Origin: Balanoglossus misakiensis
Lineage: Eukaryota; Animalia; Hemichordata
Direction of reading: 5' to 3'
DNA length: 64,000 nucleotides
Assembly: GCA_040954595.2 (NCBI GenBank)
Contig: CM082588.2
Span: 9,346,844 to 9,410,843 of the forward strand
The notes under the pieces were generated by a model that was given only the letters and a program-made list of their open reading frames with translations, made no database searches and was not told where the DNA came from. The translations under genes were made by a program, and so were the position numbers. Positions 33,109 to 61,112 of this stretch are shown piece by piece. Each line of letters starts with the position of its first letter. The stretch's first letter is position 1.

Positions 33109-33448
33109 CCGGACCGCTGACTTTTTACTTATGCAATGTATTTTATCATTTCTTTTCTCTTTTTTAAATAAACATTTCGAAAAGTACATAACCTTGTTGT
33201 TGTGCAGTGTTTATTGGAATGTGTTTTATTGAGTTAAACTTTTGTGCAAGTATAACAATCCCTCAAATTGGAAATTCATTTTGTCGACGTCACAGACACG
33301 TTCTTGGAAGAACGAATAAGGATTATAATTTTTGGCAATAGTTTCAGCGGAGCGTACCAAAAAGATTGCCAACGACTTCACCATCACCATAATTTGTGTA
33401 TTGCTAACGATTATCCTCTGCCTGGTAGTAGGACTACCTGGCGTACCC

Positions 33449-35919: not shown

Positions 35920-36297
35920 TAATCCAGACAAATTCTTCTGGCTTTTTCTGCTTACCCCACTCCTCAGCTGCTCTGCTAGTCAAACTTCTCAGTGTCATCA
36001 CCCTCAACACTGATGATAAGCAATGCTTTCAATATCTTCTCAGACAGCCTGTTCCTCAGGGATATCTTAATTCTGGACACTGCTGAAAAACACAATCTGA
36101 AAGGTAAAAAAGAAATAAAGGTTACTGAATGGAGGAGAAATATTGATTCTCACCCATCAAAACAATAAGATTCCAGAAAGTTTTCTGGAATGAAGCACTG
36201 TTTTAACTGTACATCTTAAAGCAGCATTCTTGCCCCATGTTTTGTAATAATAATGGTGAAATATAACTACTTACCTGTTGTTGAGACAGGTATTGTT
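35920..36297 (-). pseudogene. hAT-family (ZNF862-like) transposase C-terminal dimerisation-domain remnant, spliced; upstream part resumes at ~57263-57330
   Basis: Minus-strand TIPVSTT|gtaagt ... tttcag|..CFSAVSRIKISLRNRLSEKILKALLIISVEG..KFD resembles the hAT consensus PVSTAxCERxFS...IKTxLRNRL. Contains a stop and frameshifts. Confidence 0.75.
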
Positions 36298-39200
36298 GGG
36301 GGCACAAGCGCCCTCAGGCGGCTTGTGCCCCCATTGGTATTGTTGGAATTTTTACGGGCCCAAGCCAAGCCAGGCTTGGGCCCGTATTGGTTTCGTTGGG
36401 GTTTTTTAGGGCCCAAGCGCACGCAAGCGCTTGGGCCCTATTGGTTTCGTTGGAATTTTTAGGGCCCAAGCGCATACCAGCGCTTGGGCCCTATTGGTTT
36501 CGTTGGGGTTTTTAGGGCCCAAGCGCAAGCCAGCGCTTGGGCCCTATTGGTTTCGTTGGGGTTTTTTAGGGCCCAAGCCAAGCCAGGCTTGGGCCCTATT
36601 GGTTTCGTTGGAATTTTTCAGTCTTTCTTTCTTTATTCTTATGTCAATTCTTTGTCGCTCTAGATCTCAGACACTGCTGCAGGTACACATCTCAAACTTG
36701 CTACAGTGGTCAAGGTCAATGAGTAGTCGTGCATTGAACCCATGAATTTTTAATTAGTCACGTGACCTGGCGGCCATCTTGGATTTTCTGAAAAAATGCA
36801 AATCTCAGATCTCAGAAACTACAAGTCAGATCGACTTCAAATTTGGCGTGCAGGTAGACTATCTTCTGCCCATCATTTTTGTAATTGGAAATTATGCTGT
36901 CAATGTTGCAGTTTTTTTGCTACAGTTGTTTTTCTGAAATCTGGTCAAAATTTCAAAAATCTTCTTCTCCAGAACCGGCGATAACCGAGTCACGCGGTTT
37001 GGGGTATGTGGTCACCAAACTGAGGTCTATCAAGTTTGCGAAGATCATTGTGATTGGTCGAAGATTATGGCGGCCATATTGGATTTTCGAAAAACCTAGT
37101 AAAATTTCAAAAATCTTCTTCTCAAGAACCGGCGATAACTGAGTCACAAGATTTGGTGTGTGTGGTCATTAAACAGATGTCTATCAAGTTTGCGAAGGGG
37201 AATGTGATTGGTCGAAGATTATGGCGGCCATATTGGATTTTGTGAAAAACAATTAAAAAGTAAAAATTCCCTTTCTAGCCTAAAAATTGATAGCACAGAA
37301 ATTCTTTTTATGGATATGAATCATCATATGCCAAGAATAAGCTATAAATATTTTGATAATTTTGGCAATGACCTTTGACCTACTTTTGACGCATCATTTT
37401 TCTGCATATCTAATTTCAGGCTAACCTTTAAGGCTATCATTTTGGTTTTTGATGTATGTGGATTTGTATGTGATCAAAAATTTTTGCTACTTTTCATGAC
37501 CCCTTTGACCTCTGCTGACCTCATTAAATATGCACATACCTAATTACAGATGAACCAATAGACCTAGAGGTTTTGTTTTTGTTATACATGGACCAGTAAC
37601 GGGTCAAAATATTTTGCCCAAATGTTGGGTGACCTCGGGTGACCTTTGACCTACTTAACACTATATCAGCATCAGATCAGATAATAGAGCTTGGGCCCGG
37701 ACAATGCTGCTTGCAGCTTTAATTAGGGCCCAAGCGCAAGCCAGCGCTTGGGCCCTATTGGTTTCGTTGGGGTTTTTCTGTCTTTCCTTCTTAGGGCCCA
37801 AGCCAAGCCAGGCTTGGGCCCTATTGGTTTCGTTGGAATTTTTCAGTCTTTCTTTCTTTATTCTTATGTCAATTCTTTGTCGCTCTAGATCTCAGACACT
37901 GCTGCAGGTACACTTCTCAAACTTGCTACAATGGTCAAGGTCAATGAGTAGTCGTGCATTGAACCCTTGAATTTTTAATTAGTCACGTGACCTGGCGGCC
38001 ATCTTGGATTTTCTGAAAAAATGCAAATCTCAGATCTCAGAAACTACAAGTCAGATCGACTTCAAATTTGGCGTGCAGGTAGACTATCTTCTGCCCATCA
38101 TTTTTGTAATTGGAAATTATGCTGTCAATGTTGCAGTTTTTTTGCTACAGTTGTTTTTCTGAAATCTGGTCAAAATTTCAAAAATCTTCTTCTCCAGAAC
38201 CGGCGATAACCGAGTCACGCGGTTTGGGGTATGTGGTCACTAAACTGAGTTCTATCAAGTTTGCGAAGATCATTGTGATTGGTCGAAGATTATGGCGGCC
38301 ATATTGGATTTTCGAAAAACCTAGTAAAATTTCAAAAATCTTCTTCTCAAGAACCTGCGATAACTGAGTCACAAGATTTGGTGTGTGTGGTCATTAAACA
38401 GATGTCTATCAAGTTTGCGAAGAGGAATGTGATTGGTCGAAGATTATGGCGGCCATATTGGATTTTGTGAAAAACAATTAAAAAGTAAAAATTCCCTTTC
38501 TAGCCTAAAAATTGATAGCACAGAAATTCTTTTTTATGGATATGAATCATCATATGCCAAGAATAAGCTATAAATATTTTGGTAATTTTGGCAATGACCT
38601 TTGACCTACTTTTGACGCATCATTTTTCTGCATATCTAATTTCAGGCTAACCTTTAAGGCTATCATTTTGGTTTTTGATGTATGTGGATTTGTATGTGAT
38701 CAAAAATTTTTGCTACTTTTCATGACCCCTTTGACCTCTGCTGACCTCATTAAATATGCACATACCTAATTACAGATGAACCAATAGACCTAGAGGTTTT
38801 GTTTTTGTTATACATGGACCAATATCGGGTCAAAATATTTTGCCCAAATGTTGGGTGACCTCGGGTGACCTTTGACCTACTTAACACTATATCAGCATCA
38901 GATCAGATAATAGAGCTTGGGCCCGGACAATGCTGCTTGCAGCTTTAATTTCTTTCTTCTTTCTTTATTCTTCTGTCAATTCTTTGTCGCTCTAGATCTC
39001 AGACACCACTGCAGGTACAGTTCTCAAACTTGCTACAGTGGTCAAGGTCAATGAGTAGTCATGCATTGAACCCATGAATTTTTAATTAGTCACATGACCT
39101 GGCGGCCATCTTGGATTTTCTGAAAAAATGCAAATCTCAGATCTCAGAAACTACAAGTCAGATCAACTTCAAATTTGGCGTGCAGGTAGACTACCTTCTG

Positions 39201-42200
39201 TCAAACATTTTTGTAATTGGAAATTATGCTGTCAATGTTGCAGTTTTTTTGCTACAATTTTTTTTCTGAAATCTGGCTTAAATTTCAAAAATCTTCTTCT
39301 CCAGAACCGGTGATAACCGAGACACGGGGTTTGGGGTATGTGGTCACCTAACTGATGTCTATCAAGTTTGCGAAGATCATTGTGATTGGTTGAAGATTAT
39401 GGCGGCCATATTGGATTTTCGAAAAACCCTAGTAAAATTTCAAAAATCTTCTTCTCGAGAACCGGCGATAACCGAGTCACAAGATTTTGTGTGTGTGGTC
39501 ATTCAACAGATGTCTATCACGTTTGCGAAGAGGAATGTGATTGGTCGAAGATTATGGCGGCCATATTGGATTTTGTGAAAAACGATTAAAAAGTAAAAAT
39601 TCCCTTTCTAGCCTAAAAATTGATAGCACAGAAATTCTTTTTATGGATATGAATCATCATATAACAAGAATAAGCTATAAATATTTTGGTAATTTTGGCA
39701 ATGACCTTTGACCTACTTTTGACGCATCAATTTTATGCATATCTAATTCCAGGCTAACCAATAGGGCTATAAGTTTGGTTTTTGATGTATGTGGATTTGT
39801 ATGTGATCAAAAAATTTTGCTACTTTTCATGACCCCTTTGACCTCTGCTGACCTCATTAAATATGCGCATATCTAATTATAGATGAACCAATAGACCTAG
39901 AGGTTTTGTTTTTGTTGGACAGGACAAGTATGGGGTCAAAATTTTTTACGCAAATTTTGGGTGACCTCTGGTGACCTTTGACCTACTTTCGCAAATCTCA
40001 GCATCCACAGCAGATACAGCCTTGGCGTTTGGAGGTATGGGGCCATAATGAAAAGCCAAAGTTTTGGGTCACCTGTGACACCTGCTTAACTCATTATTTA
40101 TGTGCATACCTAATTCCGGGCTAACCAAAAGGGTTAGAGGTCTGGTTTTTGTTGGACATGGACCACTATGGGTCAAAATTTTCTGCCCAAACTGTGGGTG
40201 ACCTCTGGGTGACCTCTGACCTACTTAACACTATATCAGCACTAAACATAGATATAATCTTGATATTTCATGGGATAAAACACAGCATTATGTGTCTACT
40301 CATTAATTATGTGCATATCTAATAATCAAATCAGATAATAGAGCTTGGGCCCGGACAATGCTGCTTGCAGCTTTAATTAGGGCCCAAGCGCAAGCCAGCG
40401 CTTGGGCCCTATTGGTTTCGTTGGGGTTTTTCTTTCTTCTTTCTTTATTCTTGTGTCAATTCTTTGTCGCTCTAGATCTCAGACACCACTGCAGGTACAG
40501 TTCTCAAACTTGCTACAGTGGTCAAGGTCAATGAGTAGTCGTGCATTGAACCCATGAATTTTTAATTAGTCACATGACCTGGCGGCCATCTTGGATTTTC
40601 TGAAAAAATGCAAATCTCAGATCTCAGAAACTACAAGTCAGATCGACTTCAAATTTGGCGTGCAGGTAGACTACCTTCTGTCAAACATTTTTGTAATTGG
40701 AAATTATGCTGTCAATGTTTCAGTTTTTTTGCTACAATTTTTTTTCTGAAATCTGGCTTAAATTTCAAAAATCTTCTTCTCCAGAACCGGTGATAACCGA
40801 GACATGGGGTTTGGGGTATGTGGTCACCTAACTGATGTCTATCAAGTTTGCGAAGATCATTGTGATTGGTCGAAGATTATGGCGGCCATATTGGATTTTC
40901 GAAAAACCCTAGTAAAATTTCAAAAATCTTCTTCTCGAGAACCGGCGATAACCGAGTCACAAGATTTTGTGTGTGTGGTCATTCAACAGATGTCTATCAA
41001 GTTTGCGAAGAGGAATGTGATTGGTCGAAGATTATGGCGGCCATATTGGATTTTGTGAAAAACGATTAAAAAGTAAAAATTCCCTTTCTAGCCTAAAAAT
41101 TGATAGCACAGAAATTCTTTTTATGGATATGAATCATCATATAACAAGAATAAGCTATAAATATTTTGGTAATTTTGGCAATGACCTTTGACCTACTTTT
41201 GACGCATTAATTTTCTGCATATCTAATTCCAGGCTAACCAATAGGGCTATAAGTTTGGTTTTTGATGTATGTGGATTTGTATGTGATCAAAAAATTTTGG
41301 TACTTTTCATGACCCCTTTGACCTCTGCTGACCTCATTAAATATGCGCATACCTAATTACAGATGAACCAATAGACCTAGAGGTTTTGTTTTTGTTGGAC
41401 AGGACAAGTATAGGGTCAAAATTTTTTACCCAAATTTTGGGTGACCTCTGGTGACCTTTGACCTAATTTCGCAAATCTCAGCATCCACAGCAGATACAGC
41501 CTTGGCGTTTGGAGGTATGGGGTCATAATGAAAAGCCAAAGTTTTGGGTCACCTGTGACACCTGCTTAACTCATTATTTATGTGCATACCTAATTCCGGG
41601 CTAACCAAAAGGGTTAGAGGTCTGGTTTTTGTTGGACATGGACCACTATGGGTCAAAATTTTCTGCCCAAACTGTGGGTGACCTCTGACCTACTTAACAC
41701 TATATCAGCACTAAACATTGATATAATCTTGATATTTCATGGGATAAAACACAGCATTATGTTTCTACTCATTAATTATGTGCATATCTAATAATCAGAT
41801 CAGATAATAGAGCTTGGGCCCGGACAATGCTGCTTGCAGCTTTAATCTGTCTTTCTTTCTTCTTTCTTTATTCTTCTGTCAATTCTTTGTCGCTCTAGAT
41901 CTCAGACACCACTGCAGGTACAGTTCTCAAACTTGCTACAGTGGTCAAGGTCAATGAGTAGTCGTGCATTGAACCCATGAATTTTTAATTAGTCACATGA
42001 CCTGGCGGCCATCTTGGATTTTCTGAAAAAATGCAAATCTCAGATCTCAGAAACTACAAGTCAGATCAACTTCAAATTTGGCGTGCAGGTAGACTACCTT
42101 CTGTCAATCATTTTTGTAATTGGAAATTATGCTGACAAAGTTGCAGTTTTTTTGCTACAATTTTTTTTCTGAAATCAGGCTTAAATTTCAAAAATCTTCT

Positions 42201-45200
42201 TCTCCAGAACCGGTGATAACCGAGACACGGGGTTTGGGGTATGTGGTCACCTAACTGATGTCTATCAAGTTTGCGAAGATCATTGTGATTGGTCGAAGAT
42301 TATGGCGGCCATATTGGATTTTCGAAAAACCCGAGTAAATATTCAAAAATCTTCTTCTCAAGAACCGGCAATAACCGAGTCGCAAGATTTGGTGTGTGTG
42401 GTCATTAAACAGATGTCTATCAAGTTTGGGAAGAGGAATGTGATTGGTCGAAGATTATGGCGGCCATATTGGATTTTGTAAAAAGCAGTGAAAAATTAAA
42501 ATTCCTTTTTCTAGTATAAAAATTAATAGCATACAAATTCTTTTTATGGATATCAATCGTCATATGACTACAATATGTTACAAATTTTTGGCGATTTTTC
42601 ACATGACCTTTGACCTACTTTTCACACATTATTATTTCTGCATATCTATTTCCAGGCTAACCTATAGGGCTAGACGTTTTGTTTTTGATGCATGTGGATT
42701 AGTGTGTGATCAAAATATTTTGCTACTTTTCATGACCCCTTTGACCTCTGCTGACCTCATTAATTATGTGCATAGCTAATTACAGGCGAACCAATTGAGC
42801 TAGAGGTTTGGTTTTTGTTGGACATGGACCAGTATGGGGTCAAAATTTTTTGCCCAAATTTTGGATGACCTCAGATGACCTTTGACCTACTTTTGCATAT
42901 CTCAGCATCCAAAGCAGGCACAGCCTTGGCATTTGGAGGTATGGGGCCATAATGAAAAGCCAAAGTTTTGGGTCACCTTTGACGCCTGCTTTACTCACTA
43001 TTTATGTGCATACCTAATTCCGGGCTAACCAAAAGGGCTAGAGGTCTGGTTTTTGTTGGACATGGACCACTATGGGTCAAAATTTTCTGCCCAAATTTTG
43101 GATGACCTCAGATGACCTTTGACCTACTTTTGCATATCTCGGCATCCAAAGCAGGTACAGCCTTGGCATTTGGAGGTATGGGGCCATAATGAAAAGCCAA
43201 AGTTTTGGGTCACCTGTGACACCTGCTTAACTCATTATTTATGTGCATACCTAATTCCGGGCTAACCAAAAGGGTTAGAGGTCTGGTTTTTGTTGGACAT
43301 GGACCACTATGGGTCAAAATTTTCTGCCCAAACTGTGGGTGACCTCTGGGTGACCTCTGACCTACTTAACACTATATCAGCACTAAACATAGATATAATC
43401 TTGATATTTCATGGGATAAAACACAGCATTATGTGTCTACTCATTAATTATGTGCATATCTAATAATCAAATCAGATAATAGAGCTTGGGCCCGGACAAT
43501 GCTGCTTGCAGCTTTAATCTGTCTTTCTTTCTTCTTTCTTTATTCTTCTGTCAATTCTTTGTCGCTCTAGATCTCAGACACCACTGCAGGTACAGTTCTC
43601 AAACTTGCTACAGTGGTCAAGGTCAATGAGTAGTCGTGCATTGAACCCATGAATTTTTAATTAGTCACATGACCTGGCGGCCATCTTGGATTTTCTGAAA
43701 AAATGCAAATCTCAGATCTCAGAAACTACAAGTCAGATCAACTTCAAATTTGGCGTGCAGGTAGACTACCTTCTGTCAATCATTTTTGTAATTGGAAATT
43801 ATGCTGACAAAGTTGCAGTTTTTTTGCTACAATTTTTTTTCTGAAATCAGGCTTAAATTTCAAAAATCTTCTTCTCCAGAACCGGTGATAACCGAGACAC
43901 GGGGTTTGGGGTATGTGGTCACCTAACTGATGTCTATCAAGTTTGCGAAGATCATTGTGATTGGTCGAAGATTATGGCGGCCATATTGGATTTTCGAAAA
44001 ACCCGAGTAAATATTCAAAAATCTTCTTCTCAAGAACCGGCAATAACCGAGTCGCAAGATTTGGTGTGTGTGGTCATTAAACAGATGTCTATCAAGTTTG
44101 GGAAGAGGAATGTGATTGGTCGAAGATTATGGCGGCCATATTGGATTTTGTAAAAAGCAGTGAAAAATTAAAATTCCTTTTTCTAGTATAAAAATTAATA
44201 GCATACAAATTCTTTTTATGGATATCAATCGTCATATGACTACAATATGTTACAAATTTTTGGCGATTTTTCACATGACCTTTGACCTACTTTTCACACA
44301 TTATTATTTCTGCATATCTATTTCCAGGCTAACCTATAGGGCTAGACGTTTTGTTTTTGATGCATGTGGATTAGTGTGTGATCAAAATATTTTGCTACTT
44401 TTCATGACCCCTTTGACCTCTGCTGACCTCATTAATTATGTGCATAGCTAATTACAGGCGAACCAATTGAGCTAGAGGTTTGGTTTTTGTTGGACATGGA
44501 CCAGTATGGGGTCAAAATTTTTTGCCCAAATTTTGGATGACCTCAGATGACCTTTGACCTACTTTTGCATATCTCAGCATCCAAAGCAGGCACAGCCTTG
44601 GCATTTGGAGGTATGGGGCCATAATGAAAAGCCAAAGTTTTGGGTCACCTTTGACGCCTGCTTTACTCACTATTTATGTGCATACCTAATTCCGGGCTAA
44701 CCAAAAGGGCTAGAGGTCTGGTTTTTGTTGGACATGGACCACTATGGGTCAAAATTTTCTGCCCAAATTTTGGATGACCTCAGATGACCTTTGACCTACT
44801 TTTGCATATCTCGGCATCCAAAGCAGGTACAGCCTTGGCATTTGGAGGTATGGGGCCATAATGAAAAGCCAAAGTTTTGGGTCACATGTGACACCTGCTT
44901 TACACATTATTTATCTGCATACCTAATTCCGGGCTAACCAAAAGGGCTAGAGGTCTGGTTTTTGTTGGACATGGACCACTATGGGTCAAAATTTTCTGCC
45001 CAAATTTTGGCTGACCTCGGGTGACCTTTGACCTACTTTTGCATATCTCGACATCCACAGCAGATACAGCCTTGGTATTTGGAGGTAAGGGGCAATAATG
45101 AAAAACCAAAGTTTTGGGTCACCTATGACACCTGCTTAACTCATTATTTATGTGCATACCTAATTCCGGGCTAACCAAAAGGGCTAGAGGTCTGGTTTTT

Positions 45201-48200
45201 GTTGGACATGGACCACTATGGGTCAAAATTTTCTGCCCAAATTTTGGGTGACCTCAGATGACCTTTGACCTACTTAACACAATATCAGCACCAAACATAG
45301 ATATAACCTTGATATGTCATGGGATAAAACACAGCATTATGTTTCTACTCATTAATTATGTGCAGATCAGATAATAGAGCTTGGGCCCGGACAATGCTGC
45401 TTGCAGCTTTAATCTTTCTTTCTTCTTTCTTTATTCTTGTGTCAATTCTTTGTCGCTCTAGATCTCAGACACCACTGCAGGTACACTTCTGAAACTTGCT
45501 ACAGTGGTCAAGGTCAATGAGTAGTCGTGCATTGAACCCATGAATTTTTAATTAGTCACATGACCTGGCGGCCATCTTGGATTTTCTGAAAAAATGCAAA
45601 TCTCAGATCTCAGAAACTACAAGTCAGATCGACTTCAAATTTGGCGTGAAGGTAGACTACCTTCTGGCAAACATTTTTGTAATTGGAAATTATGCTGTCA
45701 ATGTTGCAGTTTTTTTTGCTACAGTTGTTTTTCTGAAATCTGGTCAAAATTTCAAAAATCTTCTTCTCCAGAACCGGCGATAACCGAGTCACGCGGTTTG
45801 GGGTATGTGGTCACCAAACTGAGGTCTATCAAGTTTGCGAAGATCATTGTGATTGGTCGAAGATTTTGGCGGCCATATTGGATTTTTGAAAAACCCTAGT
45901 AAAATTTCAAAAATCTTCTTCTCAAGAACCGGCGATAACTGAGTCACAAGATTTGGTGTGTGTGGTCATTAAACAGATGTCTATCAAGTTTGCGAAGGTG
46001 AATGTGATTGGTCGAAGATTATGGCGGCCATATTGGATTTTGTGAAAAACGATTAAAAAGTAAAAATTCCCTTTCTGGCCTAAAAATTGATAGCACAGAA
46101 ATTCTTTTTATGGATATGAATCATCATATGCCAAGAATAAGCTATAAATATTTTGGTAATTTTGGCAATGACCTTTGACCTACTTTTGACACATGATTTT
46201 TCTGCATATCTAATTCCAGGCTAACCAATAGGGCTATAAGTTTGGTTTTTGATGTATGTGGATTTGTATGTGATCCAAAAATTTTGCTATTTTTCATGAC
46301 CCCATTGACCTCTGGTGACCTCATTAAATATGCACATACCTAATTACAGATGAACCAATAGACCTAGAAGTTTTGTTTTTGTTATACATGGACCAGTATG
46401 GGGTCAAAATATTTTGCCCAAATGTTGGGTGACCTCGGGTGACCTTTGACCTACTTTTGCATATCTTGACATCCACAGCAGATACAGCCTTGGCGTTTGG
46501 AGGTATGGGGCCATAATGAAAAGCCAAAGTTTTGGGTCACCTGTGACACCTGCTTAACTCATTAATTATGTGCATACCTAATTCTAGGGTAACCAAAAGG
46601 GCTAGAGGTCTGTTTTTTGTTGGACATGGACCACTATGGGTCAAAATTTTCTGCCCAAATTTTGGATGACCTAAGATGACCTTTGACGTACTTTTGCATA
46701 TCTCGACATCCAAAGCAGGTACAGCCTTGGCATTTGGAGGTATGGGGCCATAATGAAAAGCCAAAGTTTTGGGTCACCTGTGACACCTGCTTTACGCATT
46801 ATTTATGTGCATACCTAATTCCAGGCTAACAAAAAGGGCTAGAGGTCTGGTTTTTGTTGGACATGGACCACTATGGGTCAAAATTTTCTGCCCAAATGTT
46901 GGGTGACCTCTGGGTGACCTTTGACCTACTTAACACTTTAACAGCACCAAACATACATATAACCTTGATATTTCATGGGATAAAACAGCATTATGTTTCT
47001 ACTCATTAATTATGTGCATATCTAATATCAGATCAGATAATAGAGCTTGGGCCCGAACAATGCTGCTTGCAGCTTTAATTCTGTCTTTCTTTCTTTCTTT
47101 ATTCTTCTGTCATTTCTTTGTCGTTCTAGATCTCAGACACCACTGCAGGTACAGTTCTCAAACTTGCTACAGTGGTCAAGGTCAATGAGTAGTCGTGCAT
47201 TGAACCCATGAATTTTTAATTAGTCACATGACCTGGCGGCCATCTTGGATTTTCTGAAAAAATGCAAATCTCAGATCTCAGAAACTACAAGTCAGATCAA
47301 CTTCAAATTTGGCGTGCAGGTAGACTACCTTCTGTCAAACATTTTTGTAATTGGAAATTATGCTGTCAATGTTGCAGTTTTTTTGCTACAATTTTTTTTC
47401 TGAAATCTGGCTTAAATTTCAAAAATCTTCTTCTCCAGAACCGGTGATAACCGAGACACGGGGTTTGGGGTATGTGGTCACCTAACTGATGTCTATCAAG
47501 TTTGCGAAGATCATTGTGATTGGTCGAAGATTATGGCAGCCATATTGGATTTTCAAAAAACCCCATTAAAATTTCAAAAATCTTCTTCTCGAGAACCGGC
47601 GATAACCGAGTCACAAGATTTTGTTTGTGTGGTCATTCAACAGATGTCTATCAAGTTTGCGAAGAAGAATGTGATTGGTCGAAGATTATGGCGGCCATAT
47701 TGGATTTTGTGAAAAACGATTAAAAAGTAAAAATTCCCTTTCTAGCCTAAAAATTGATAGCACAGAAATTCTTTTTATGGATATGAATCATCATATGACA
47801 AGAATAAGCTATAAATATTTTGGTAATTTTGGCAATGACCTTTGACCTACTTTTGACGAATCATTTTTCTGCATATCTAATTCCAGGCTAACCAATAGGG
47901 CTATAAGTTTGGTTTTTGATGTATGTGGATTTGTATGTGATCAAAAAATTTTGCTACTTTTCATGACCCCTTTGACCTCTGGTGACCTCATTAAATATGC
48001 GCATACCTAATTAATGATGGACCAATAGATCAAGAGGTTTTGTTTTTGTTATACATGGACCAGTATGGGGTCAAAATATTTTGCCCAAATGTTGGGTGAC
48101 CTCGGGTGACCTTTGACCTACTTTTCCATATCTCGACATCCACAGCAGATACAGCCTTGGTGTTTGGAGGAATGGGGCCATAATGAAAAGCCAAAGTTTT

Positions 48201-51200
48201 GGGTCACCTGTGACACCTGTTTAACTCATTATTTATGTGCATACCTAATTCCGGGCTAACCAAAAGGGCTAGAGGTCTGGTTTTTGTTGGACATGGACCA
48301 CTATGGGTCAAAATTTTCTGCCAAAATTGTGGGTGACCTCTGACCTACTTAACACTATATCAACACCAAACAAAGATATAACCTTGATATTTCATGGGAT
48401 AAAACACAGCATTATGTTTCTACTCATTAATTATATGCATATCTAATAATCAGATCAGATAATAGAGCTTGGGCCCGGACAATGCTGCTTGCAGCTTTAA
48501 TTACGGGCCCAAGCCAAGCCAGGCTTGGGCCCGTATTGGTTTCGTTGGAGTTTTTAGGGCCCAAGCGCATACCAGCGCTTGGGCCCTATTGGTTTCGTTG
48601 GGGTTTTTCAGTCTTTCTTTCTTTCCTTCTTTATTCTTGGTTCCATTTTTCGGCCACCTAAATCTCAAAAACTGCAGCACCAACCAGGCTGAAACTTGGT
48701 AGGCAGATAGGGGCCAATGAGTAGATGTGCAGTGGCTCGTGAATATTTAATTAGTCACGTGACCTGGCGGCCATATTGGATTTTCTGAAAAAAATGCAAA
48801 TCTCAGATCTCAGAAACTACAAGTCAGATTGACTTCAAATTTGGTGTGCAGCTAGTATACCTTATGCCCATCATTTTTGTAATTGAATATTATGCTGTCA
48901 ATGTTGCAGTTTTTTTGCTACAGTTGTTTTTCTGAAATCTGGTCAAATTTTCAAAAATCTTCTTCTCCAGAACCGGCGATAACCGAGTCACGCCATTTGG
49001 GGTATGTGGTCACCTAACTGATGTCTATCAAGTTTGCGAAGATCATTGTGATTGGTCGAAGATTATGGCGGCCATATTGGATTTTCGAAAAACCATAGTA
49101 AAACTTCAAAAATCTTCTTCTCCAGAACGGGCGATAACCGAGTCACAAGATTTCGTGTGTGTGGTCATTAAACAGATGTCTATCAAGTTTGCGAAGGGGA
49201 ATGTGATTGGTCGAAGATTATGGCGGCCATATTGGATTTTGTGAAAATCGATTAAAAAGTAAAAATTCCCTTTCTAGCCTAAACATTGATAGCACAGAAA
49301 TTCTTTTTATGGATATGAATCATCATATGACAAGAATTAGCTATAAATATTTTGGTAATTTTGGCAATGACCTTTGACCTACTTTTGACGCATCATTTTT
49401 CTGCATATCTAATTCCAGGCTAACCAATAGGGCTATAAGTTTGGTTTTTGATGTATGTGGATTTGTATGTGATCAAAAAATTTTGCTACTTTTCATGACC
49501 TCTGCTGACCTCATTAAATATGCACATTCCTAATTAATGATGAACCAATAGACCTAGAGGTTTTGTTTTTGTTATACATGGACCAGTATGGGGTCAAAAT
49601 ATTTTGCCCAAATGTTGGGTGACCTTGGGTGACCTTTGACCTACTTTTGCATATCTCGACATCCACAGCAGATACAGCCTTGGCGTTTGGAGGCATAGGG
49701 CCATAATTAAAAGCCAAAGTTTTGGGTCACCTGTGACACCTGCTTAACTCATTATTTATGTGAATACCTAATTCCAGGCTAACCAAAAGGGCTAGAGGTC
49801 TGGCTTTTGTTGAACATGGACCACTATGGGTCAAAATGTTCTGCCAAAATTGTGGGTGACCCCTGGGTGACCTTTGACCTACTTAAGACTATATCAGCAC
49901 CAAACAGATATAACCTTGATATTTCATGCGATAAAACACAGCATTATGTTTCTACTCATTAATAATGTGCATATCTAATAATCAGATCAGATAATAGAGC
50001 TTGGGCCCGGACAATGCTGCTTGCAGCTTTAATTCTTTCTTTATTCTTATGTCAATCTTTGCTCTCCTAGATCTCTGAAACGGCTACAGGTACACTTCTC
50101 AAACTTGCTACAGTGGTCAAGGTCAATGAGTAGATGTGCAGTGGCTTGTGAATATTTAATTAGTCACATGACCTGGCGGCCATATTGGATTTTCTGAAAA
50201 TCTTTAAATGGCTTCTTCTCAAAAACCACAGGGCCAATCAAGTTCAAATTTGGTGTATGGTACACATGTCCTCTGCCCTTCAAAGTTTGACAATAAAATC
50301 CTGAGCGGTCACGTGACTTTGGCCGCCATATTGGATTTTCGAAAAAGTACAGTAAAATCTTCAAAAATCTTCTTCTCCAGAACCGGCAATAACCGAGTCA
50401 TGGGATTTAGGGTATGACATCACCTAACTGATGTCTATCAAGTTTGCGAAGAGCGTTGTGATTGGTCGAAGATTATGGCGGCCATATTGGATTTTGTAAA
50501 AACCAGCGAAAATTAAGAAATCATTTTTCTAGTCTAAAAATAGATAGCATACAAATTCTTTTTATGGATATGAGTCGTGATATGACTAGAATATGTTGCA
50601 AATATTTTGGAAATTTTCACATGACCTTTGACCTACTTTTTTAAGAACCTGCATATATGCATATATAGCTCATACTACGTGTTCTAAATGTACCAGAGTT
50701 CTGATTTTTGTGCACATTGGTACCATCCCTGCCAGGACCTACCCCAAATATTTTGGTAATTTTGGCAATGACCTTTGACCTACTTTTGACACATCATTTT
50801 TTACTGCATATCTAATTACAGGCTAACCTATAGGGCTATGATTTTGGTTTTTGATGTATGTGGATTTGTATGTGATCAAAAAATTTCGCTACTTTTCATG
50901 ACCCCTTTGACCTCTGCTGACCTCATTAAATATGTGCATACCTAATTACAGATGAACCAATAGACCTAGAGGTTTGGTTTCTGTTGGACATGGACCAGTA
51001 TTGGGTCGAAAATTTTTGCCCAAATTTTGGGTGACCTCGGGTGACCTTTGACCTACTTTTGCATATCTCGACATCCACAGCAGATACAGCCTTGGCGTTT
51101 GAAGGTATGGGGCCATAATGAAAAGCCAAAGTTTTGGGTCACCTGTGACACCTGCTTAACTCATTATTTATGTGCATACCTAATTCCGGGCTAACCAAAA

Positions 51201-54200
51201 GGGCTAGAGGTCTGGTTTTTGTTGGACATGGACCACTATGGGTCAACATTTTCTGCCCAAATTTTGGGTGACCTTACTTGACCTTTGACCTACTTAACAC
51301 TATATCAGCACCAAACATAGATATAACCTTGATATTTCTTGGGATAAAACACAGCATTATGTTTCTACTCATTAATTATGTGCATATCTAATAATCTGAT
51401 CAGATAATAGAGCTTGGGCCCGGACAATGCTGCTTGCAGCTTTAATTCTTTCTTTCTTTCTTTCTTTATTCTTGTGTCAATTCTTTGGGCAACGAGATCT
51501 CAGACACCGCTGCAGGTACACTTCTCAAACTTGCTACAGTGGTCAAGGTCAATGAGTAGATGTGCAGTGACTTGTGAATACTTAATTAGTCACGTGACCT
51601 GGCGGCCATATTGGATTTTCTGAAAAAAATCAAATCTCAGATCTCAGAAACTACAAGTCAGATCGACTTCAAATTTGGCATGCAGGTAGACTACCTTCTA
51701 CCCATCATTTGTGTAATTGGAAATTTTGCTGTCAATGTTGCAGTTTTTTTGCTACAGTTGTTTTTCTCAAATCTGGCTTAAATTTCAAAAATCTTCTTCT
51801 CCAGAACCAGTGATAACCGAGACACGGGGTTTGGGGTATGTGGTCACCTAACTGATGTCTATCAAGTTTGCGAAGATCATTGTGATTGGTTGAAGATTAT
51901 GGCGGCCATATTGGATTTTCGAAAAACCATAGTAAAACTGCAAAAATCTTCTTCTCCAGAACGACCGATGACTGAGTCGCAAGATTCGGGGAGTATGGTC
52001 ACTACACTGATGTCTATCAAGTTTGCAAAGAGCATTGTGATTGGTCGAAGATTATGGCGGCCATATTGGATTTTGTAAAAAGCAGTGACAAATTGAAATT
52101 CCTTTTTCTAGTCTAAAAATTGATAGCATACAAATTCTTTTTATGGATATCAGTCGTCATGTGACTAAAATATGCTACAATTTTTTGGTGATTTTTCACA
52201 TGACCTTTGACCTACTTATCATGCGTTATTATTTCTGCATATCTAATTCCAGGCTAACCTATAGGGCTAGAGGTTTGGTTTTTGATGAATGTGGATTAGT
52301 GTGTGATCAAAATATTTTGCTACTTTTCATGACCCCTTTGACCTCTGCTGACCTCATTAATTATGTGCATAGCTAATTTCAGGCGAACCAATAGAGCTAG
52401 AGGTTTGATTTTTGTTGGACATGGACCAGTATGGGATCAAAATTTTTGCCCAAATTTTGGGTGACCTCTGGTGACCTTTGACCTACTTTCGCATATCTCA
52501 GCATCCAGAGCAGATACAGCCATGGCATTTGGCAGGATGGGACCAAAATGTAAAGCACATTTTTTGGTCACCTGTTACACCTGCTGACCTCATTAAATAT
52601 GCACATACCTAATTACAGGCGAACCAATAGAGCTAGAGTTTTGGTTTTTGTTGGACATGGACCAGTATGGGTAAAAAAAAAATTGCCCAAATGTTGGGTG
52701 ACCTCAGGTGACCTTTGACCTACTTCACCCTATTTCAGCAGCAAAAATACATACGTCCTTCTTATGTCATGAGATAATACACCCGATAGAAAATTATATT
52801 TCTTCTCATTCATACTGTGCATATATAATTCGAGATCAGCGCTTGGGCCCGACAATGCTGCTTGCAGCTTTAATCTTTCTTTATTCTTGGCTCACTTCTT
52901 TGTCGCTCTAGATCTCAGACACCACTGCAGGTACAGTTCTCAAACTTGCTACAGTGGTCAAGGTCAATGAGTAGTAGTGCATTGAACCCATGAATTTTTA
53001 ATTAGTCACATGACCTGGCGGCCATCTTGGATTTTCTGAAAAAATGCAAATCTCAGATCTCAGAAACTACAAGTCAGATCGACTTCAAATTTGGCGTGCA
53101 GGTAGACTACCTTCTGGCAATCATTTTTGTAATTGGAAATTATGCTGTCAATGTTGCAGTTTTTTTGCTACAATTTTTTTTCTGAAATCTGGCTTAAATT
53201 TCAAAAATCTTCTTCTCCAGAACCGGTGATAACCGAGACACGGGGTTTGGGGTATGTGGTCACCTAACTGATGTCTATCAAGTTTGCGAAGATCATTGTG
53301 ATTGGTCGAAGATTATGGCGGCCATATTGGATTTTCGAAAAACCCTAGTAAAATTTCAAAAATCTTCTTCTCGAGAACCGGCGATAACCGAGTCACAAGA
53401 TTTGGTGTGTGTGGTCATTCAACAGATGTCTATCAAGTTTGCGAAGAGGAATGTGATTGGTCGAAGATTATGGCGGCCATATTGGATTTTGTGAAAAACG
53501 ATTAAAAAGTAAAAATTCCCTTTCTAGCCTAAAAATTGATAGCGCAGAAATTCTTTTTATGGATATGAATCATCATATAACAAGAATAAGCTATAAATAT
53601 TTTGGTAATTTTGGCAATGACCTTTGACCTATTTTTGACGCATCAATTTTCTGCATATCTAATTCCAGGCTAATCAATAGGGCTATAAGTTTGGTTTTTG
53701 ATGTATGTGGATTTGTGTGTGATCAAAAAATGTTGCTACTTTTCATGACCCATTTTTGGGTCACCTGTGACACCTGCTGACCTCATTAAATATGCACATA
53801 CCTAATTACAGATGAACCAATAGACCTAGAGATTTTGTTTTGGTTATACATGGACCAGTATGGGGTCAAAATATTTTGCCCAAATGTTGGGTGACCTCGG
53901 ATGACCTTTGACCTACTTTGGCATATCTTGACATCCACAGCAGATACAGCCTTGGCGTTTGGAGGTATAGGGCCATAATGAAAAGCCAAAGTTTTGGGTC
54001 ACCTGTGACACCTGCTTAACTCATTATTTATGTGCATACCTAATTCCGGGCTAACCAAAAGGGCTAGAGCTCTGGTTTTTGTTGGACATGGACCACTATG
54101 GGTCAAAATATTCTGCCCAAATTTTGGGTGACCTCTGGGTGACCTTTGACCTACTTAACACTATGTCAACACCAAACCTAGATATAACCTTGATATTTCA

Positions 54201-57200
54201 TGGGATAAAACACAGCATTATGTTTCTACTCATTAATAATGTGCATAACTAATAATCAGATCAGATAATAGAGCTTGGGCCCGGACAATGCTGCTTGCAG
54301 CTTTAATTAGGGCCCAAGCGCAAGCAAGCGCTTGGGCCCTATTGGTTTCGTTGGGGTTTTTCTGTCTTTCCTTCTTTCTTTCTTTCTTTATTCTTCTGTC
54401 ATTTCTTTGTCGCTCTAGATCTCAGACACCACTGCAGGTACAGTTCTCAAACTTGCTACAGTGGTCAAGGTCAATGAGTAGTCGTGCATTGAACCCATGA
54501 ATTTTTAATTAGTCACATGACCTGGCGGCCATCTTGGATTTTCTGAAAAAATGCAAATCTCAGATCTCAGAAACTACAAGTCAGATCGACTTCAAATTTG
54601 GCGTGCAGGTAGACTACCTTCTGATAAACATTTTTGTAATTGGAAATTATGCTGTCAATGTTGCAGTTTTTTTGCTACAATTTTTTTTCTGAAATCTCGC
54701 TTAAATTTCAAAAATCTTCTTCTCCAGAACCGGTGATAACCGAGACACGGGGTTTGGGATATGTGGTGACCTAACTAATGTCTATCAAGTTTGCGGAGAT
54801 CATTGTGATTGGTCGAAGATTATGGCAGCCATATTGGATTTTCGAAAAACCCTAGTAAAATTTCAAAATTCTTCTTCTCGAGAACCGGCAATAACCGAGT
54901 CACAAGATTTTGTGTGTGTGGTCATTCAACAGATGTCTATTAAGTTTGCGAAGAGGAATGTGATTGGTCGAAGATTATGGCGGCCATATTGGATTTTGTG
55001 AAAAACAATTTAAAAGTAAAAATTCCCTTTCTAGCCTAAAAATTTATAGCACAGAAATTCTTTTTATGGATATGAATCATCATATGACAAGAATAAGCTA
55101 TAAATATTTTGGTAATTTTGGCAATGACCTTTGACCTACTTTTGACGCATCATTTTTCTGCATATCTAATTCCAGGCTAACCAAAAGGGCTATAAGTTTG
55201 TTTTTTGATGTATGTTGATTTGTATGTGATCAAAAAATTTTGCTACTTTTCATGACTCCTTTGACCTCTGCTGACCTCATTAAATATGTGCATAGCTAAT
55301 TACAGGCGAACCAATAGAGCTAGAGGTTTGGTTTTTGTTGGACATGGACCAGTATGGGATCAAAAATTTTTGCCCAAATGTTGGGTGACCTCTGGTGACC
55401 TTTGACCTACTTTCGCATATCTCAGCATCCAGAGCAGATACAGCCATGGCATTTGGAGGTATGGGGCCATAATGAAAAGCCAAAGTTTTGGGTCACCTGT
55501 GACACCTGCTTTACTCATTATTTATGTGCATACCTAATTCCGGGCTAACCAAAATGGCTAGAGGTCTGGTTTTTGTTGGACATGTACCACTATGGGTCAA
55601 AATTTTCTGCCCAAATTTTGGATGACCTCAGATGACCTTTGACCTACTTTTGCATATCTCAGCATCCAAAGCAGGTACAGCCTTGGCATTTGGCGGTATG
55701 GGGCCATAATGAAAAGCCAAAGTTTTGGGTCACCTGTGACACCTGCTTTACTCATTATTTATGTGCATACCTAATTCCGGGCTAACCAAAAAGGGCTAGA
55801 GGTCTGGTTTTCGTTGGACATGGACCACTATGGGTCAAAATTATCTGCCCAAATTGTGGATGACCTCAGATGACCTTTGACCTACTTTTGCACTATATCA
55901 GCACCAAACATAGATATAACCTTGATATTTCATGGGATAAAACACAGCATTATGTCTCTACTCATTAATTATGTGCATATCTAATAATCAGATCAGATAA
56001 TAGAGCTTGGGCCCGGACAATGCTGCTTGCAGCTTTAATTCTTTATTATTCTTCTTCTTCTTCTTCTTCTTCCGAGAAATTCGGCCAGGTAGATCTGGAA
56101 AACCGCAGCACCTAGGGGGCTGAAACTTGGTAGGGTGATAGGGGCCAATGAGTAGACGTGCAGTGGCCTGTGAATATTTAATTAGTCATGTGACCTGGCG
56201 GCCATATTGGATTTCCTGAAAACCGTTAAATGAGTCCTTCTCAAAAACTACAGGGCCGATCGAGTTCAAATTTGGTGTGCAGGTAGCCTACCTTCTGCCC
56301 ATCATTTTACCCCATTGAAATCATGACGTCATACATAAAGTTTTTTTGCTACAATTGTTTTTCTGAAAAACTACTTCAAACTTTAAAAATCTTCTTCTCC
56401 AGAACCAGCGGTTACCGAGTCTCGGGATTTGGGATATGTGGTCACCTAACCTATGTCTATCAAGTTTGCGAAGCGCACTGTGATTGGTCGATCATTATGG
56501 CGGCCATGTTGGATTTTCGGAAAACCATTGAAAAATGAAAATTCTGTTTTGTAGCCAAAATGTTGACAGCACGGAAATTCTTTTTTTGGATATGAGTCAT
56601 CATATGACCGGAAGTAGTCACAATTTTTCGGGGCAATTTTCACATGACCTTTGACCCAGTTTTAAAACAACTAATTATATATGCATATTCCCCATACCTC
56701 CTCTTGTAAAAGCACCACAGTCATGAATTTTGTGGACATGGGTACCAATGCTGCCAGGACATGACACAAATATTTTGGTAATTTTGGCAATGACCTTTGA
56801 CCTATTTCTGTAACATCATTTTTCTGCATATCTAATTCCATGCTACCCAATAGGGCTAGAGGTCTGGTATTGGTTGGACATCGCCCAGTCTGGGGTCAAA
56901 ATTTTATGCCCTAATTTTGGGTGACCTTGGGTGACCTTTGATCTACTTTCCCATATCTCAGCATCCAGAGCAGTTAGAGCCCTGGCTTTTATGGGTATTG
57001 AGCACATAATGGAGTCTTACACAAGACCTCATTAATTATGTGCATACCTAATTTCAGGCGAACCAATAGGGCTAGGGGTCTCGTTTTTTGTTGGATCTAG
57101 ACTAGTATGGGGTCCAATTTTTTTGCCCAAATTTGGGTTGACCTCAGGTGACCTTTGACCTACTTTCCCATATCTTGGTATCCCCAGCAGATACAGCCGT

Positions 57201-57262
57201 GGCATTTGCTGGTCACCATGGGAACCGCTTGTGCCCCGCCAACGCTGCTTGCAGCTTTAATT
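36298..57262 (+). mobile_element. ~21-kb nested/tandem cluster of non-autonomous Helentron-like (HINE/DINE-1-type) elements: 14 bodies of ~1.1-1.9 kb
   Basis: 5' hairpin containing subTIR gggcccaagc, then a (CTTT)n tract, internal subrepeats, 3' subTIR gcttgggccc and small hairpin gctgc-tt-gcagc ending in tttaat(t). Inserted at TT with no TSD. Tails end at ~37724, 38950, 40378, 41846, 43518, 45413, 47080, 48502, 50034, 51447, 52874, 54308, 56040 and 57262. Confidence 0.85.
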
Positions 57263-57899
57263 AATCCTTATTTTTATTAGAAATTTCAAATCAAACATGA
57301 GATCGTGTCCTTTACAGTATTTTCAAAGTTTTGGCAAATACATAAATAAAATGTTTCTTGTGTTTCAATGGGTAAACTAAAAAAATTAAGTAGTCAGCCA
57401 CAATTTTATGTTTATTTTATAACTTTCAAACAATTTTGGCTGGCACAAAACAAACAAAGGGACTGCCACTGAAAGCAAAAATCATGAGGGGTATTTCAAA
57501 ACTTTTCTTGAAAAAGAACACCTCATTCATAACATGAAATCACATATAGAGTGATTGTTATATTTATGTTAGTTTTGTTCACATGTGACATGTCAAAAAA
57601 ACTGAGTTGGTAAATATTAACTGTGGTTATTATATTCAGCTATTACCCTGAAACTATTTGAAAGTGCTTGTTACAATTTTAACGCCATTAATCAATGAAA
57701 ATTGTGGGTAATTCCATTCACTAAATTAGTCACTATCATAATTGATATCCCAATAACTCAACCAGTCGACAACAATACCCCATCCACTTTCATCAAAGAG
57801 ACCCTCCTTATGCAATTCTTTCAGTATTTTGACTCTATGTTGTTGTATATTAATGGAGTCACTTTAAAGTTGGCGACAGCCAGTCATAGCTGGTTCATA

Positions 57900-58265
57900 T
57901 TCCCCACAGACAACTGTTGACCCAAGGAGTTCAGCTACTTTTAGCTTGGACGATTCCGGTCTTGCTTGTTTTCGTTTGTGGCAACAGGAGTCGGGCAAAT
58001 CCCTTAATGGACCTGCCTGTAGTACCTGATCTGGGGTATGGTAGTCACTACGAGGTCGATATTTTGGTAAATAAATGGAAGCTCAAGGGTGACCATCTCG
58101 GCCATACTGCAGCGAGTGCCCAGATGTCCTTTGCCGTGCTGAGCTGTGGTTTCAGGGCCAGTACTTCTGGTAAAAGACTGTTCCTTCTCTGGGATATTTT
58201 GTATCAGAAATTCTCGTACTGACGCTGAAGTCCGAAATTTTGACGTTCATCCCAGGAACGCTAAT
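57900..58265 (-). pseudogene. Decayed protein-kinase exon (subdomains VII-IX)
   Basis: ttgcag|ISVPGMNVKISDFSVSTRISDTKYPREGTVFY..(frameshift)PEVLALKPQLSTAKDIWALAAV..(frameshift)AEMVTLELPF, matching VKISDFG / PE / DIW motifs with DFG changed to DFS. Confidence 0.65.
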
Positions 58266-61112
58266 CTGCAATAATTGGGATAAAGCATACACTGTATACA
58301 GTTGAGCTGGGCTCTCGGTGATTTGGTCCTGTTCATGATCATGACTGAAATCCCATCAATGGTACCGATCAAATGATTCTTGACCTGTCCCAGTGCGTGA
58401 TCTTAAATGATCAGGGGCAGGAGCCACATCTTCTGGAAAGCCAGAATCATTGATCGAACAGGTACCATTGATCAGAATGTGGGAGTATCAAAGCTCAGAT
58501 TTCCTTCTTGTATTGGTAGAAGTAAATGTATTGATTAATAAGCAGAGCCATTCTTAGCTCTTCCATCAAACCAATATATTATGATTTCTGTATGTTTTAT
58601 GATTTTTTTGTCTTTTGCCTCATTATTGGTAAATCATATTTTCTTTAAGTAATCAGCCGACTTATGTGAAATTTAGTATGAAGCTTTCTATAGGTGATCT
58701 GAGTTACAGTAGTTTCAAATTGTTGCAAAATTTGTAATTTACAATTTTGGAGCAAATTTGCTTTTAAGTTTTTAAAAGGCTTAATTTATGGAAGTATGTC
58801 ACTACTTTTAGTGAACAATTTTTTTCCCAGAATCAGTGGTCTTGTCATTAACTTTTAGTGGCAAATTGCTTTAAAATTATTTTCTACTATTTCTCACTGA
58901 ACTTACCCTTGATAGAAATATTTCTATCACAAAGGCACCCAATACAAACATGTTAGAATATGCAATAAGAATTTAAGATATCTAAAACATTATGATTATT
59001 TTTATGATTTATAATTATGAAAAGAATATCCGACAATTTCTTGAGGTGTAAAGGTTTTTTTTTCATGACAGGTTGATGACCTGTTCATGTACAAATGCAC
59101 ATTGTGAAGTTCAACACTATCTGAACTTACAAGAATACGTGTGGTATATTATATGCATTTGACCTAAAAAATATCCACAGCACCAGAACAAGAAGTGCGT
59201 TTGACCAATTGTTTACATCATTGGAGCCAGTCTTTTTTAAGCTGGTTTGCAAGAGCCTTCTGTAAGACATAGAACACAAGATGAAATAGTGTTATGGTTC
59301 GCCGTTGGTCTGTAAGCTGGTTGATGAGTTGAATGCAGAAACTCAACATGCTTTGCTTTCAGTGATGTTCCTCGATGTGTGGTGTGATGATTATGTAGGC
59401 CTCCTCTATGCAGTAAAATAGGACATGTTGTGCTGAACTAAATCTGACTTCCACAAAGCAATGTACCCTGTTGGTAAAGATTGTTAGCTACCCTAACACT
59501 TGTATTAAAGTTGTCTGATGTTGGCCTAAATTTTGTAAACCCAGCAAAAGATAAAAAATACTCGCCTTGCTTGTTGTCCTCTTTCCCTGAACGTGAATAA
59601 ACACACAAAAATAAACATTACTCTGGAAATTTTGTAAGATTATAAGCAATTCACTCTGTGTCAATGAATAATGGACTCCTGCCATGATCAGTGAACTTGT
59701 AAAATACAAATTTGTTTTTAGTAACAATCAAGTCACTATTCCCAATCAAACCAACACCCCTTTCAGTATCCTTCGATGTTATATTCTGAATGAATGAAAC
59801 ATTGGCAGGATTTCTATTTTGTCTTAATTGTACTAATTAAGCCATTCATAGAAGATTTTAAATAGTTTTTCCTTTTTTTTCTGTGACACAAGGTTTACAG
59901 GTTTTGATACAAACAGCTATTTTCAAGCATTGCAAATTGTTGTACAGGATTCGCTCGCTTTTCCTTGCGTATCATAAATTGTGTCTTAGTTTCTGTTCGA
60001 ACTTGTGATTCTGATCTGTGAAATTGTTTTCCTTCTGCAGTTTTGTGTTTTCATTTCTCAAGCCTGTGACTTCTTCATAAAGTTCATTTTGATGTCAAAG
60101 CAACTAAGGCTTCATCATAATAAGATACCCTGTGTTGCACATCATCAATGTCTTCAATCCACACGGCTACACCAAACTTTTCACATGTCAAAATACACAA
60201 ACGAACACTTACTTATTCATACAATGTATTAATTTAATGCTTTATTTCCCTGCATACTGGTACATATAAAATACTCTCTAGATTAATGATTACATATAAA
60301 AAATTTGTTTAGTCTGTAATATGGGTATAATTTATTATGTATGAATTTCTTTTTGTACATGATTGGATTTGTTTTACTTGTAAGCAGTCTACACGTTGTC
60401 CTTTCACAAATGTGCTGGATACATGCATGTCCGAACATGTTCATGGACCCAAAACATTCTACATCCTTTTCAAGACTTTGCAATTATATGGACAAAGTCT
60501 ATTGATATTAGTAAATTTCTAGAGATCAATACACATATTCCTGTCAGCTGCCACACACCTCCTGACGATTCTATAGGCGCTACATGAAATAAAAAAGGGG
60601 GTCCGCAAACGTCTTTCATTATACCAGACTTGAATGAGCTCTATTCAAACTTGCCTGTGGACAGTTAAAGGGAGAAACCATGACAAATGGCTTTCTGGTG
60701 GTTGTTTTATATTGTTGGGTGGATTTTATCTTTTCTCTTATATATACCAAGTTTGAATGAAATCTCTTCTTGCATAGTGGCTAAATCCTATGCAGCCCAG
60801 CTCATTTGCATAACAATGCAAAGTGGAGACCATAACTTTCCACTCAAATTATAAAATATTCAATGACTGACTGATTTCTTTTCTTCAATATAACTAAAAA
60901 TGAGCTAAAAAATGACTATAGCAACAAATTTTCATATGAAAGCTAAAAAAATTGGCTTTCAAATGATGCTAAAGTAAAAATAAAAGTAAAATAATTCCAT
61001 GACACTTTACCTGTGTGAACCTGTTGGAATACTGTTGGGGCGAATTTTAAACTCTTTTCAGTTTCAGCAACTACAGTTGGATTTCGAGAAAACATAATTA
61101 TAACAACATACC

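What the first reader, a model, noticed from the sequence alone, without database searches (positions are those of the whole stretch)
36298..57262. Self-targeting 'Russian-doll' nest of Helentron-like elements whose heads and tails pair like brackets
Seen: six 5' hairpin heads are stacked back-to-back (36298, 36354, 36408, 36461, 36514, 36568), each starting in the T-run ~20 nt behind the previous hairpin. More heads occur at 37725, 37793, 40379, 48503, 48556 and 54309. After many tails the sequence resumes headless, mid-(CTTT)n tract. For example, head 37725 is cut at ...ctttccttctt and continues at 38951; compare the uninterrupted head at 54309. Only the first head (ggggcacaagc) and the last tail (gcttgtgcccc, 57227) share a distinct subTIR, 21 kb apart, and the last body is the most divergent. 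Inference: elements repeatedly insert into the T-rich tract just behind the 5' hairpin of their own family, creating a self-renewing landing pad. This differs from ordinary head-to-tail rolling-circle concatemers. I cannot confirm whether it has been described before.
Basis: partly seen in the sequence, partly recalled or inferred. Interest (0 to 1): 0.85.

Follow-up and report, generated by a model that had tools for sequence, protein, structure and literature searches.

The report
One-allele stack of self-inserting transposons
This 21-kb block is a stack of about a dozen small non-coding repeats, likely rolling-circle (Helentron-type) transposons that likely jumped one inside another just behind each copy's front hairpin, and it is likely present on only one of the animal's two chromosome copies, so the stack would have grown or arrived fast; self-insertion was already proposed for fungal relatives.

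Summary
The structure is real, but the brackets do not balance: 12 heads, 14 tails. One extra tail is a near-exact local duplication; the other body has lost its head. All 11 inner heads sit in, or at the edge of an earlier insert in, the T-rich tract behind a hairpin; none is in a body. A contig from another locus joins the outermost head directly to the last body, which confirms the outer bracket. Contig ends and half-depths match a filled/empty heterozygote to the base, so the whole nest is likely on one homolog only. The elements have HINE/DINE-1 (non-autonomous Helitron2/Helentron) anatomy; no transposase partner could be sought. The last body is a separate subfamily, about 2% from copies elsewhere, so its divergence is not age. 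Middle pairings are weakly supported and one conflicts. No long reads span the interior. Self-insertion and multiple 5' ends were proposed for Fusarium Helitrons (PMC5148889). This scan noted the same habit in 7 other pieces of this genome and in other genomes (unchecked notes).

The parts
36298..57260 (+). Whole nest, bounded by TT on each side; likely absent from the other homolog
36298..36353 (+). Head 1 (distinct subfamily), cut in its 5-T run; partner is body 14
36354..36567 (+). Heads 2-5, each cut in the T run about 20 nt behind its hairpin (5 or 6 T left)
36568..37722 (+). Head 6 + body 1, complete element
37725..37792 (+). Head 7, tail-adjacent, cut inside the CTTT tract
37793..38948 (+). 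Head 8 + body 2, complete; 99.2% to body 1
38949..40376 (+). Body 3, remainder of head 7
40379..41845 (+). Head 9 + body 4, complete, tail-adjacent; missing from the duplicated junction
41846..43517 (+). Body 5: chimeric duplicate (front = body 6, last 350 bp = body 3); surplus tail
43518..47078 (+). Bodies 6 and 7; both need a 6-T head and only head 5 is left, so one head is lost
47079..48500 (+). Body 8, partner of head 4 by order and T count; subtype conflicts with head 11/body 9
48503..51445 (+). Head 10 [head 11 + body 9] body 10: two-level sub-nest, tail-adjacent
51446..54306 (+). Bodies 11 and 12, inferred partners of heads 3 and 2
54309..56038 (+). Head 12 + body 13, complete, tail-adjacent
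56039..57260 (+). Body 14 with the distinct 3' subTIR at 57227; remainder of head 1
35982..36297 (-). Left flank: likely decayed hAT-transposase-like exons; weak lead only
   Evidence: no Pfam hit; rank-17 cluster, PF05699 in 38% of members, score 0.89

Best explanation
The block is a stack of 12 heads and 14 bodies of a high-copy non-coding repeat family, likely non-autonomous Helitron2/Helentron (HINE) transposons, likely built by repeated in-trans insertion into the T-rich tract behind a resident copy's 5' hairpin, then likely remodelled by one duplication and one head loss, likely on a single allele. Steps: (1) A head-1/body-14 element landed at a TT (pair shown at another locus; empty site inferred). 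(2) Copies of other subtypes inserted at T^T or T^C in that tract, each adding one full element plus 2 T. Each new copy carries a fresh tract, so heads pile up on the left and cut-off bodies on the right (pattern shown, order inferred). (3) Some copies landed at the right edge of an earlier insert, giving tail-to-head joints of non-identical copies (shown). (4) Unequal exchange between bodies 6 and 3 made body 5, and one head like head 5 was lost (chimera shown, cause inferred). Why the tract is chosen: most likely (about 55% within this model) a RepHel transposase bound at a resident hairpin end delivers incoming single-stranded circles to the nearest T run; T-richness alone does not explain it, because body T runs are untouched. 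This step is untested.
For: A 259-nt X3 contig with another flank matches head 1 with 0 differences over 58 nt and continues into the start of body 14; a contig of the same length, depth and strand aligns to body 14 at 56080-56201. 1 X1 and 4 X2 contigs show the same continuation. 11 of 11 inner heads lie in the head tract or at a tail edge; 0 in bodies that hold 8-10 T5+ runs each (5 of 5 complete elements counted). T bookkeeping: 6 of 6 uncut T runs have 5 T; left + right - 2 = 5 for 6 of 6 pairs in 3 of 28 possible parses, all of which drop two of bodies 5-7. Seven X1 contigs laid on head 2 go on without the CTGTC/CAGTC start, as bodies 12 and 10 do. Flank contigs end at 36297 (X1, X2) and start at 57261 (X1); simulation gives exactly these for filled/empty and 36321/57238 for homozygous. 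Flank depth 46.6 splits into 23.6 + 24.6 from 36268. Deeper bodies have fewer private differences (rho -0.74, n=13; -0.67 without body 14). Anatomy matches HINE/Helitron2.
Against: Heads and tails do not balance (12 vs 14). The T-count test is weak alone: 144 of 5,040 random pairings (0.029), and 5 of 35 label shuffles (0.14) when the dropped body is chosen freely. Head 4 has the same hairpin as head 11, but its predicted body 8 differs from body 9 in start and first 150 columns. Bodies are mosaics (nearest neighbour changes along them; tree support mostly 20-50), so subtype cannot confirm middle pairs. The depth/divergence trend is confounded by which subfamilies have sisters in the nest. The empty allele's letters were not displayed, and X2 shows no half-depth contigs and uneven flank depth (36.7 vs 158.7). 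The 3' hairpin is weak (z 0.58 and 1.24). No transposase partner was seen.
Confidence: 0.78

Rival explanations
1. The nest was built elsewhere and copied here in one jump from head 1 to tail 14, reading through inner tails because only tail 14 pairs perfectly with head 1's subTIR. This differs from the best explanation in where, not how, the nest grew.
For: Likely hemizygous, so 11 further hits on one allele are otherwise needed. PMC3627910 suggests 5'/3' ATIR pairing sets the end point. A head-1-to-head-2-type junction with 1 difference has depth 250, about ten times one haplotype (32 and 25 letters on the two sides, under the tool's 31-letter bridging rule).
Against: 21 kb with 13 internal tails that share the terminal 3' motif; no donor seen; no genome to search.
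Confidence: 0.12
2. Multi-headed composites (outer head + inner head + inner body + first tail, as modelled for FoHeli) moved as units, so there were fewer independent events and the pairing is partly illusory.
For: Head-to-head junction variants with 1-5 differences occur in contigs from other loci. Heads 10-11 resemble heads 2 and 4. Head 4/body 8 mismatch. Model in PMC5148889.
Against: Composites give surplus heads; this locus has surplus tails. Head 1's own body is present.
Confidence: 0.12
3. No nesting: a head array made by slippage next to a body array made by unequal crossing-over or rolling-circle concatemerisation.
For: The head stack scores as a 53-bp tandem repeat. Body 5 shows that duplication happens here. 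Multi-5' truncated Helitron arrays are reported for plants (via review PMC12628747).
Against: The six stacked heads are six distinct hairpin variants. Tail-to-head neighbours are 82.6-98.7% identical, never identical. Headless bodies restart at different points that fit their cut heads. The outer pair is confirmed.
Confidence: 0.04
4. The interior is partly an assembly artefact (false duplication of body 5/6, collapsed head).
For: 1,415 bp and 350 bp of exact identity. No listed contig spans the interior; no raw long reads were offered.
Against: The left junction is in an X1 contig with 0 differences. Other bodies differ by 0.8% or more. If the other homolog is empty, a haplotype mis-join cannot make body 5. 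An artefact would explain only the surplus tails.
Confidence: 0.1

Closest known systems
HINE / DINE-1 non-autonomous Helentrons (PMC4067079, PMC2374699, oyster Cg_HINE PMC7492417; passages read)
   Same: 5' subTIR with inner inverted repeat, microsatellite, central tandem repeats (155 and 237 bp here), subterminal 3' subTIR, no coding capacity, TT/T-rich target, high copy number.
   Different: The passages read describe no nests in the element's own head tract ('nested' occurs 0 times in two of the papers; in the passages shown from the third it refers to the inverted repeat). The 3' hairpin here is weak.
Helitron2 (PMC3627910; passages) and HLE2 (PMC11417382; passages)
   Same: 5' hairpin using the 5' ATIR, 3' ATIR 20-30 bp from the end, insertion between T and T. 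The TTTT^T/C target of Helitron-1N1_CRe fits the six cuts in the 5-T run.
   Different: The outer site and head 7's cut have only one T to the left; no autonomous partner was seen here.
FoHeli multiple 5' termini and self-insertion model, Fusarium (PMC5148889; section 10 and passages; supplements not read)
   Same: Short duplicated 5' ends (31-85 nt there, 53-68 nt here), explained by self-insertion.
   Different: There, several heads with one tail, and the nest is a proposed intermediate. Here most cut-off bodies are still in place, up to 7 levels deep, in an animal.
MITE multimers with self-insertion preference (review PMC5172404) and TE double insertion seeding satellites (PMC5932611)
   Same: Same-family nesting by independent insertions; side-by-side double insertion followed by unequal exchange.
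   Different: Those are cut-and-paste or retro elements, mostly dimers, with target duplications; not a fixed site behind a terminal hairpin.

Membership tests
HINE/DINE-1 (non-autonomous Helitron2/Helentron) | 5' subTIR at the end, pairing with an inner repeat to form a hairpin | tested here: met
   12 of 12 heads; z -5.4 to -6.1 in 3 of 3 folded
HINE/DINE-1 (non-autonomous Helitron2/Helentron) | Subterminal 3' subTIR | tested here: met
   14 of 14 tails, starting about 33 bp before the end
HINE/DINE-1 (non-autonomous Helitron2/Helentron) | 3' palindrome/hairpin after the 3' subTIR | tested here: inconclusive
   5-bp arms GCTGC/GCAGC in all tails, but no better than shuffles in 2 of 2 folded
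HINE/DINE-1 (non-autonomous Helitron2/Helentron) | Microsatellite near the 5' end and central tandem repeats | tested here: met
   CTTT/CTT tract; 155-bp and 237-bp repeats
HINE/DINE-1 (non-autonomous Helitron2/Helentron) | No coding capacity | tested here: met
   Longest stop-to-stop frame in the nest is 111 aa; 2 frames scanned, 0 Pfam hits; 0 Rfam hits
HINE/DINE-1 (non-autonomous Helitron2/Helentron) | Insertion at TT without target modification | tested here: inconclusive
   TT flanks and a constant +2 T; element-borne T cannot be told from a TT duplication, and the empty site is inferred
Helentron | Autonomous partner with RepHel plus endonuclease and the same ends | not testable with these tools
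   No genome held; none in the window's ORF list
Helitron superfamily | Rolling-circle transposition via a single-stranded circle | not testable with these tools
   Needs bench work
Rolling-circle concatemer | Identical head-to-tail copies | tested here: not met
   4 of 4 tail-to-head neighbours differ (82.6-98.7%)
FoHeli-type multi-head composite | Several 5' ends with a single 3' end | tested here: not met
   14 tails for 12 heads

The most novel reading that the evidence does not exclude
Resident 5' hairpins of Helitron2-type elements act as transposase-loaded landing pads, so one insertion starts an autocatalytic pile-up that grows to 21 kb on a single allele before the empty allele is lost. 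This would be a general, insertion-driven route to large hemizygous structural variants and satellite-like arrays in animals, with subTIR pairing possibly letting whole nests move.
Probability: 0.4. Interest if true: 0.72.

Novelty: new variant of a known kind. Interest (0 to 1): 0.52.

Why it matters
How Helitron2/Helentron elements choose targets is open: only a TT or poly-T preference is on record in the papers read. A site fixed about 20 nt behind the family's own hairpin, with body T runs ignored, gives a direct assay for end-guided targeting. It shows the nested intermediate that the Fusarium model predicted. If the nest is hemizygous, it gives a measurable case of rapid allele-specific expansion. 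Such nests would also be mis-annotated as satellites.

Tried and rejected
No whole genome is held, so no genome-wide count and no RepHel search. No other copy of the family lies in the window outside the nest (0 of 390 BLAST rows). The body tree was uninformative (most support 20-50). Rfam: 0 hits. Pfam on 8 flank frames: 0 hits, so the hAT label stays a weak lead. Look-up of earlier findings by sequence: nothing. Campbell-type integration of a circle was rejected by reasoning: it gives head-body-tail tandems, not stacked heads. A fixed target sequence outside the element is not supported: the few flanks shown from other loci share little beyond T. Nine paper searches found no description of deep, site-fixed HINE nests in animals; the library lacks most subscription papers, and no supplements were read.
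Full report
Observation. Reading 35,500-58,500 and pattern searches give 12 heads and 14 tails between 36,298 and 57,260, all on the + strand. Each head is a 32-36-nt hairpin (z -5.4 to -6.1 in 3 of 3 tested), then about 20 nt ending in a T run, then a CTTT-type tract. Bodies are 1.1-1.9 kb with 155-bp and 237-bp internal repeats. Tails carry a subTIR about 33 bp from the end and a weak 5-bp palindrome. The nest has no frame over 111 aa and no Rfam hit. This is the anatomy described for HINE/DINE-1 and Helitron2 (passages). 'Head = 5' end' follows those papers' convention.

The brackets do not balance. Body 5 shares 1,415 bp exactly with body 6 and its last 350 bp exactly with body 3. It is a recombinant duplicate, and it preserves a junction from body 3's tail straight to body 6's start without the element at 40,379-41,845. 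That element is therefore likely a later insert, or absent from one template. After removing body 5, one headless body remains in surplus. Six of 6 uncut T runs have 5 T. If each insertion adds 2 T, heads cut with 6 T need bodies resuming with 1 T, and heads with 5 T need 2. Three of 28 ways of dropping two headless bodies satisfy 6 of 6 pairs; all drop two of bodies 5-7 and give head 4/body 8, 10/10, 3/11, 2/12, 1/14. The simplest reading is that one more head like head 5 was lost. Alone this test is weak (0.029 for fixed pairs; 0.14 with a free drop). One pair conflicts: heads 4 and 11 share a hairpin, but bodies 8 and 9 differ at the start. Bodies are mosaics and the tree is unresolved.

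Outside evidence. No genome is held. Three runs of one sample, kept as contigs, hold the flank; they may be the source of the assembly and are not independent. The family is very abundant: summed depth on heads is about 40,000-270,000 in X1 against 47 on the flank (the tool warns this is no copy number). A 259-nt X3 contig has another flank, matches head 1 with 0 differences over 58 nt and runs on for 152 nt that begin like body 14. A contig of the same length, depth and strand aligns to body 14 from its base 138; I infer it is the same record. So a solo head-1/body-14 element exists and the outer bracket holds. Body 14 differs by 2.2% from six listed X3 pieces: it is a different subfamily, not an ancient copy. 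Head-to-head junctions with 1-5 differences also occur, one at about ten times single-haplotype depth, so stacks exist at other loci; none of these short contigs meets the tool's 31-letters-each-side rule.

Likely hemizygous. The left-flank contig stops at 36,297 in X1 and X2, and the right-flank contig starts at 57,261 in X1. A k=31 simulation gives exactly these two places for a filled/empty heterozygote with the TT kept once, and 36,321/57,238 for a homozygote. In X1 the flank depth is 46.6; a listed junction contig of depth 23.6 starts at 36,268, and the bin arithmetic requires a second of 24.6 starting at the same base (68.0 predicted, 68 seen). The second contig's letters were not displayed, and X2 shows no such pair, so the empty allele is inferred (about 85%). 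Rejoining the flanks with one TT also gives a 9-codon stretch between an AG and a GT that resembles a hAT dimerisation motif (motif recalled, Pfam negative, weak Atlas lead).

Targeting. Of 11 inner heads, 6 are in the 5-T run, 1 in the CTTT tract and 4 at the right edge of an earlier insert; 0 are in bodies. Five complete elements hold 1 T5+ run and 15-20 TT in the head tract against 8-10 runs and 135-199 TT in the body. Seven hits of 7 in the tract has a chance near 1e-7, subject to the window having been picked and to composites reducing the number of events. Tail-to-head neighbours are 82.6-98.7% identical, so they are separate insertions. Deeper bodies have fewer private differences (rho -0.74, n=13, body 5 left out), as expected if inner is younger, but this is confounded by subfamily sampling.

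Mechanism. Shown: layout, outer pair, duplication, target clustering. Inferred: order of middle layers, empty allele, mobilisation in trans by a RepHel protein, and recruitment to resident hairpins. I favour recruitment over plain T preference because body T runs are spared. A one-step arrival of the whole nest and multi-head composites remain open.

Known and new. Self-insertion giving short repeated 5' ends was proposed for Fusarium Helitron2 elements (PMC5148889). TT/poly-T targets, MITE self-insertion and double insertion as a seed for satellites are in print. Nine searches found no paper on deep, site-fixed HINE nests in animals, within a library that lacks most subscription journals; no supplements were read, and those of PMC5148889 may hold more. 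PMC5907723 was seen as abstract and outline only (non-nested arrays). This scan's own unchecked notes report the same habit in 7 other pieces of this genome and in other genomes; they are not independent support. What this locus adds is the solo-copy check of the outer pair, a dated-by-identity duplication, and the likely one-allele state. Verdict: a real, remodelled nest; new variant of a known kind; interest 0.52.

Noticed in passing
window 11034-14832 (-): Broken LTR-retrotransposon-like region in several frames; integrase (rve, Integrase_H2C2) and a weak aspartyl protease hit.
   Followed up: partly
window 278-3070: 91-bp tandem array, about 31 copies, with longer periods.
   Followed up: no
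window 21892-27501 (+): Exons of a likely secreted protein with a thrombospondin type 1 domain (Pfam) and EGF-like exons (by eye).
   Followed up: partly
window 35982-36297 and 57263-58460 (-): Likely decayed hAT-transposase-like gene interrupted by the nest; Pfam negative, weak Atlas lead.
   Followed up: partly
window 36289-36299 and 36335-36345: The 11-mer GGTATTGTTGG occurs both across the outer insertion site and just behind head 1's hairpin. Chance, or a hint of element-guided target choice; the few other flanks seen do not show it.
   Followed up: partly
window 31646-33775: Diverged direct repeat of about 600-670 bp at 73% identity.
   Followed up: no
window 61112-61261: Exact 75-bp tandem duplication.
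   Followed up: no
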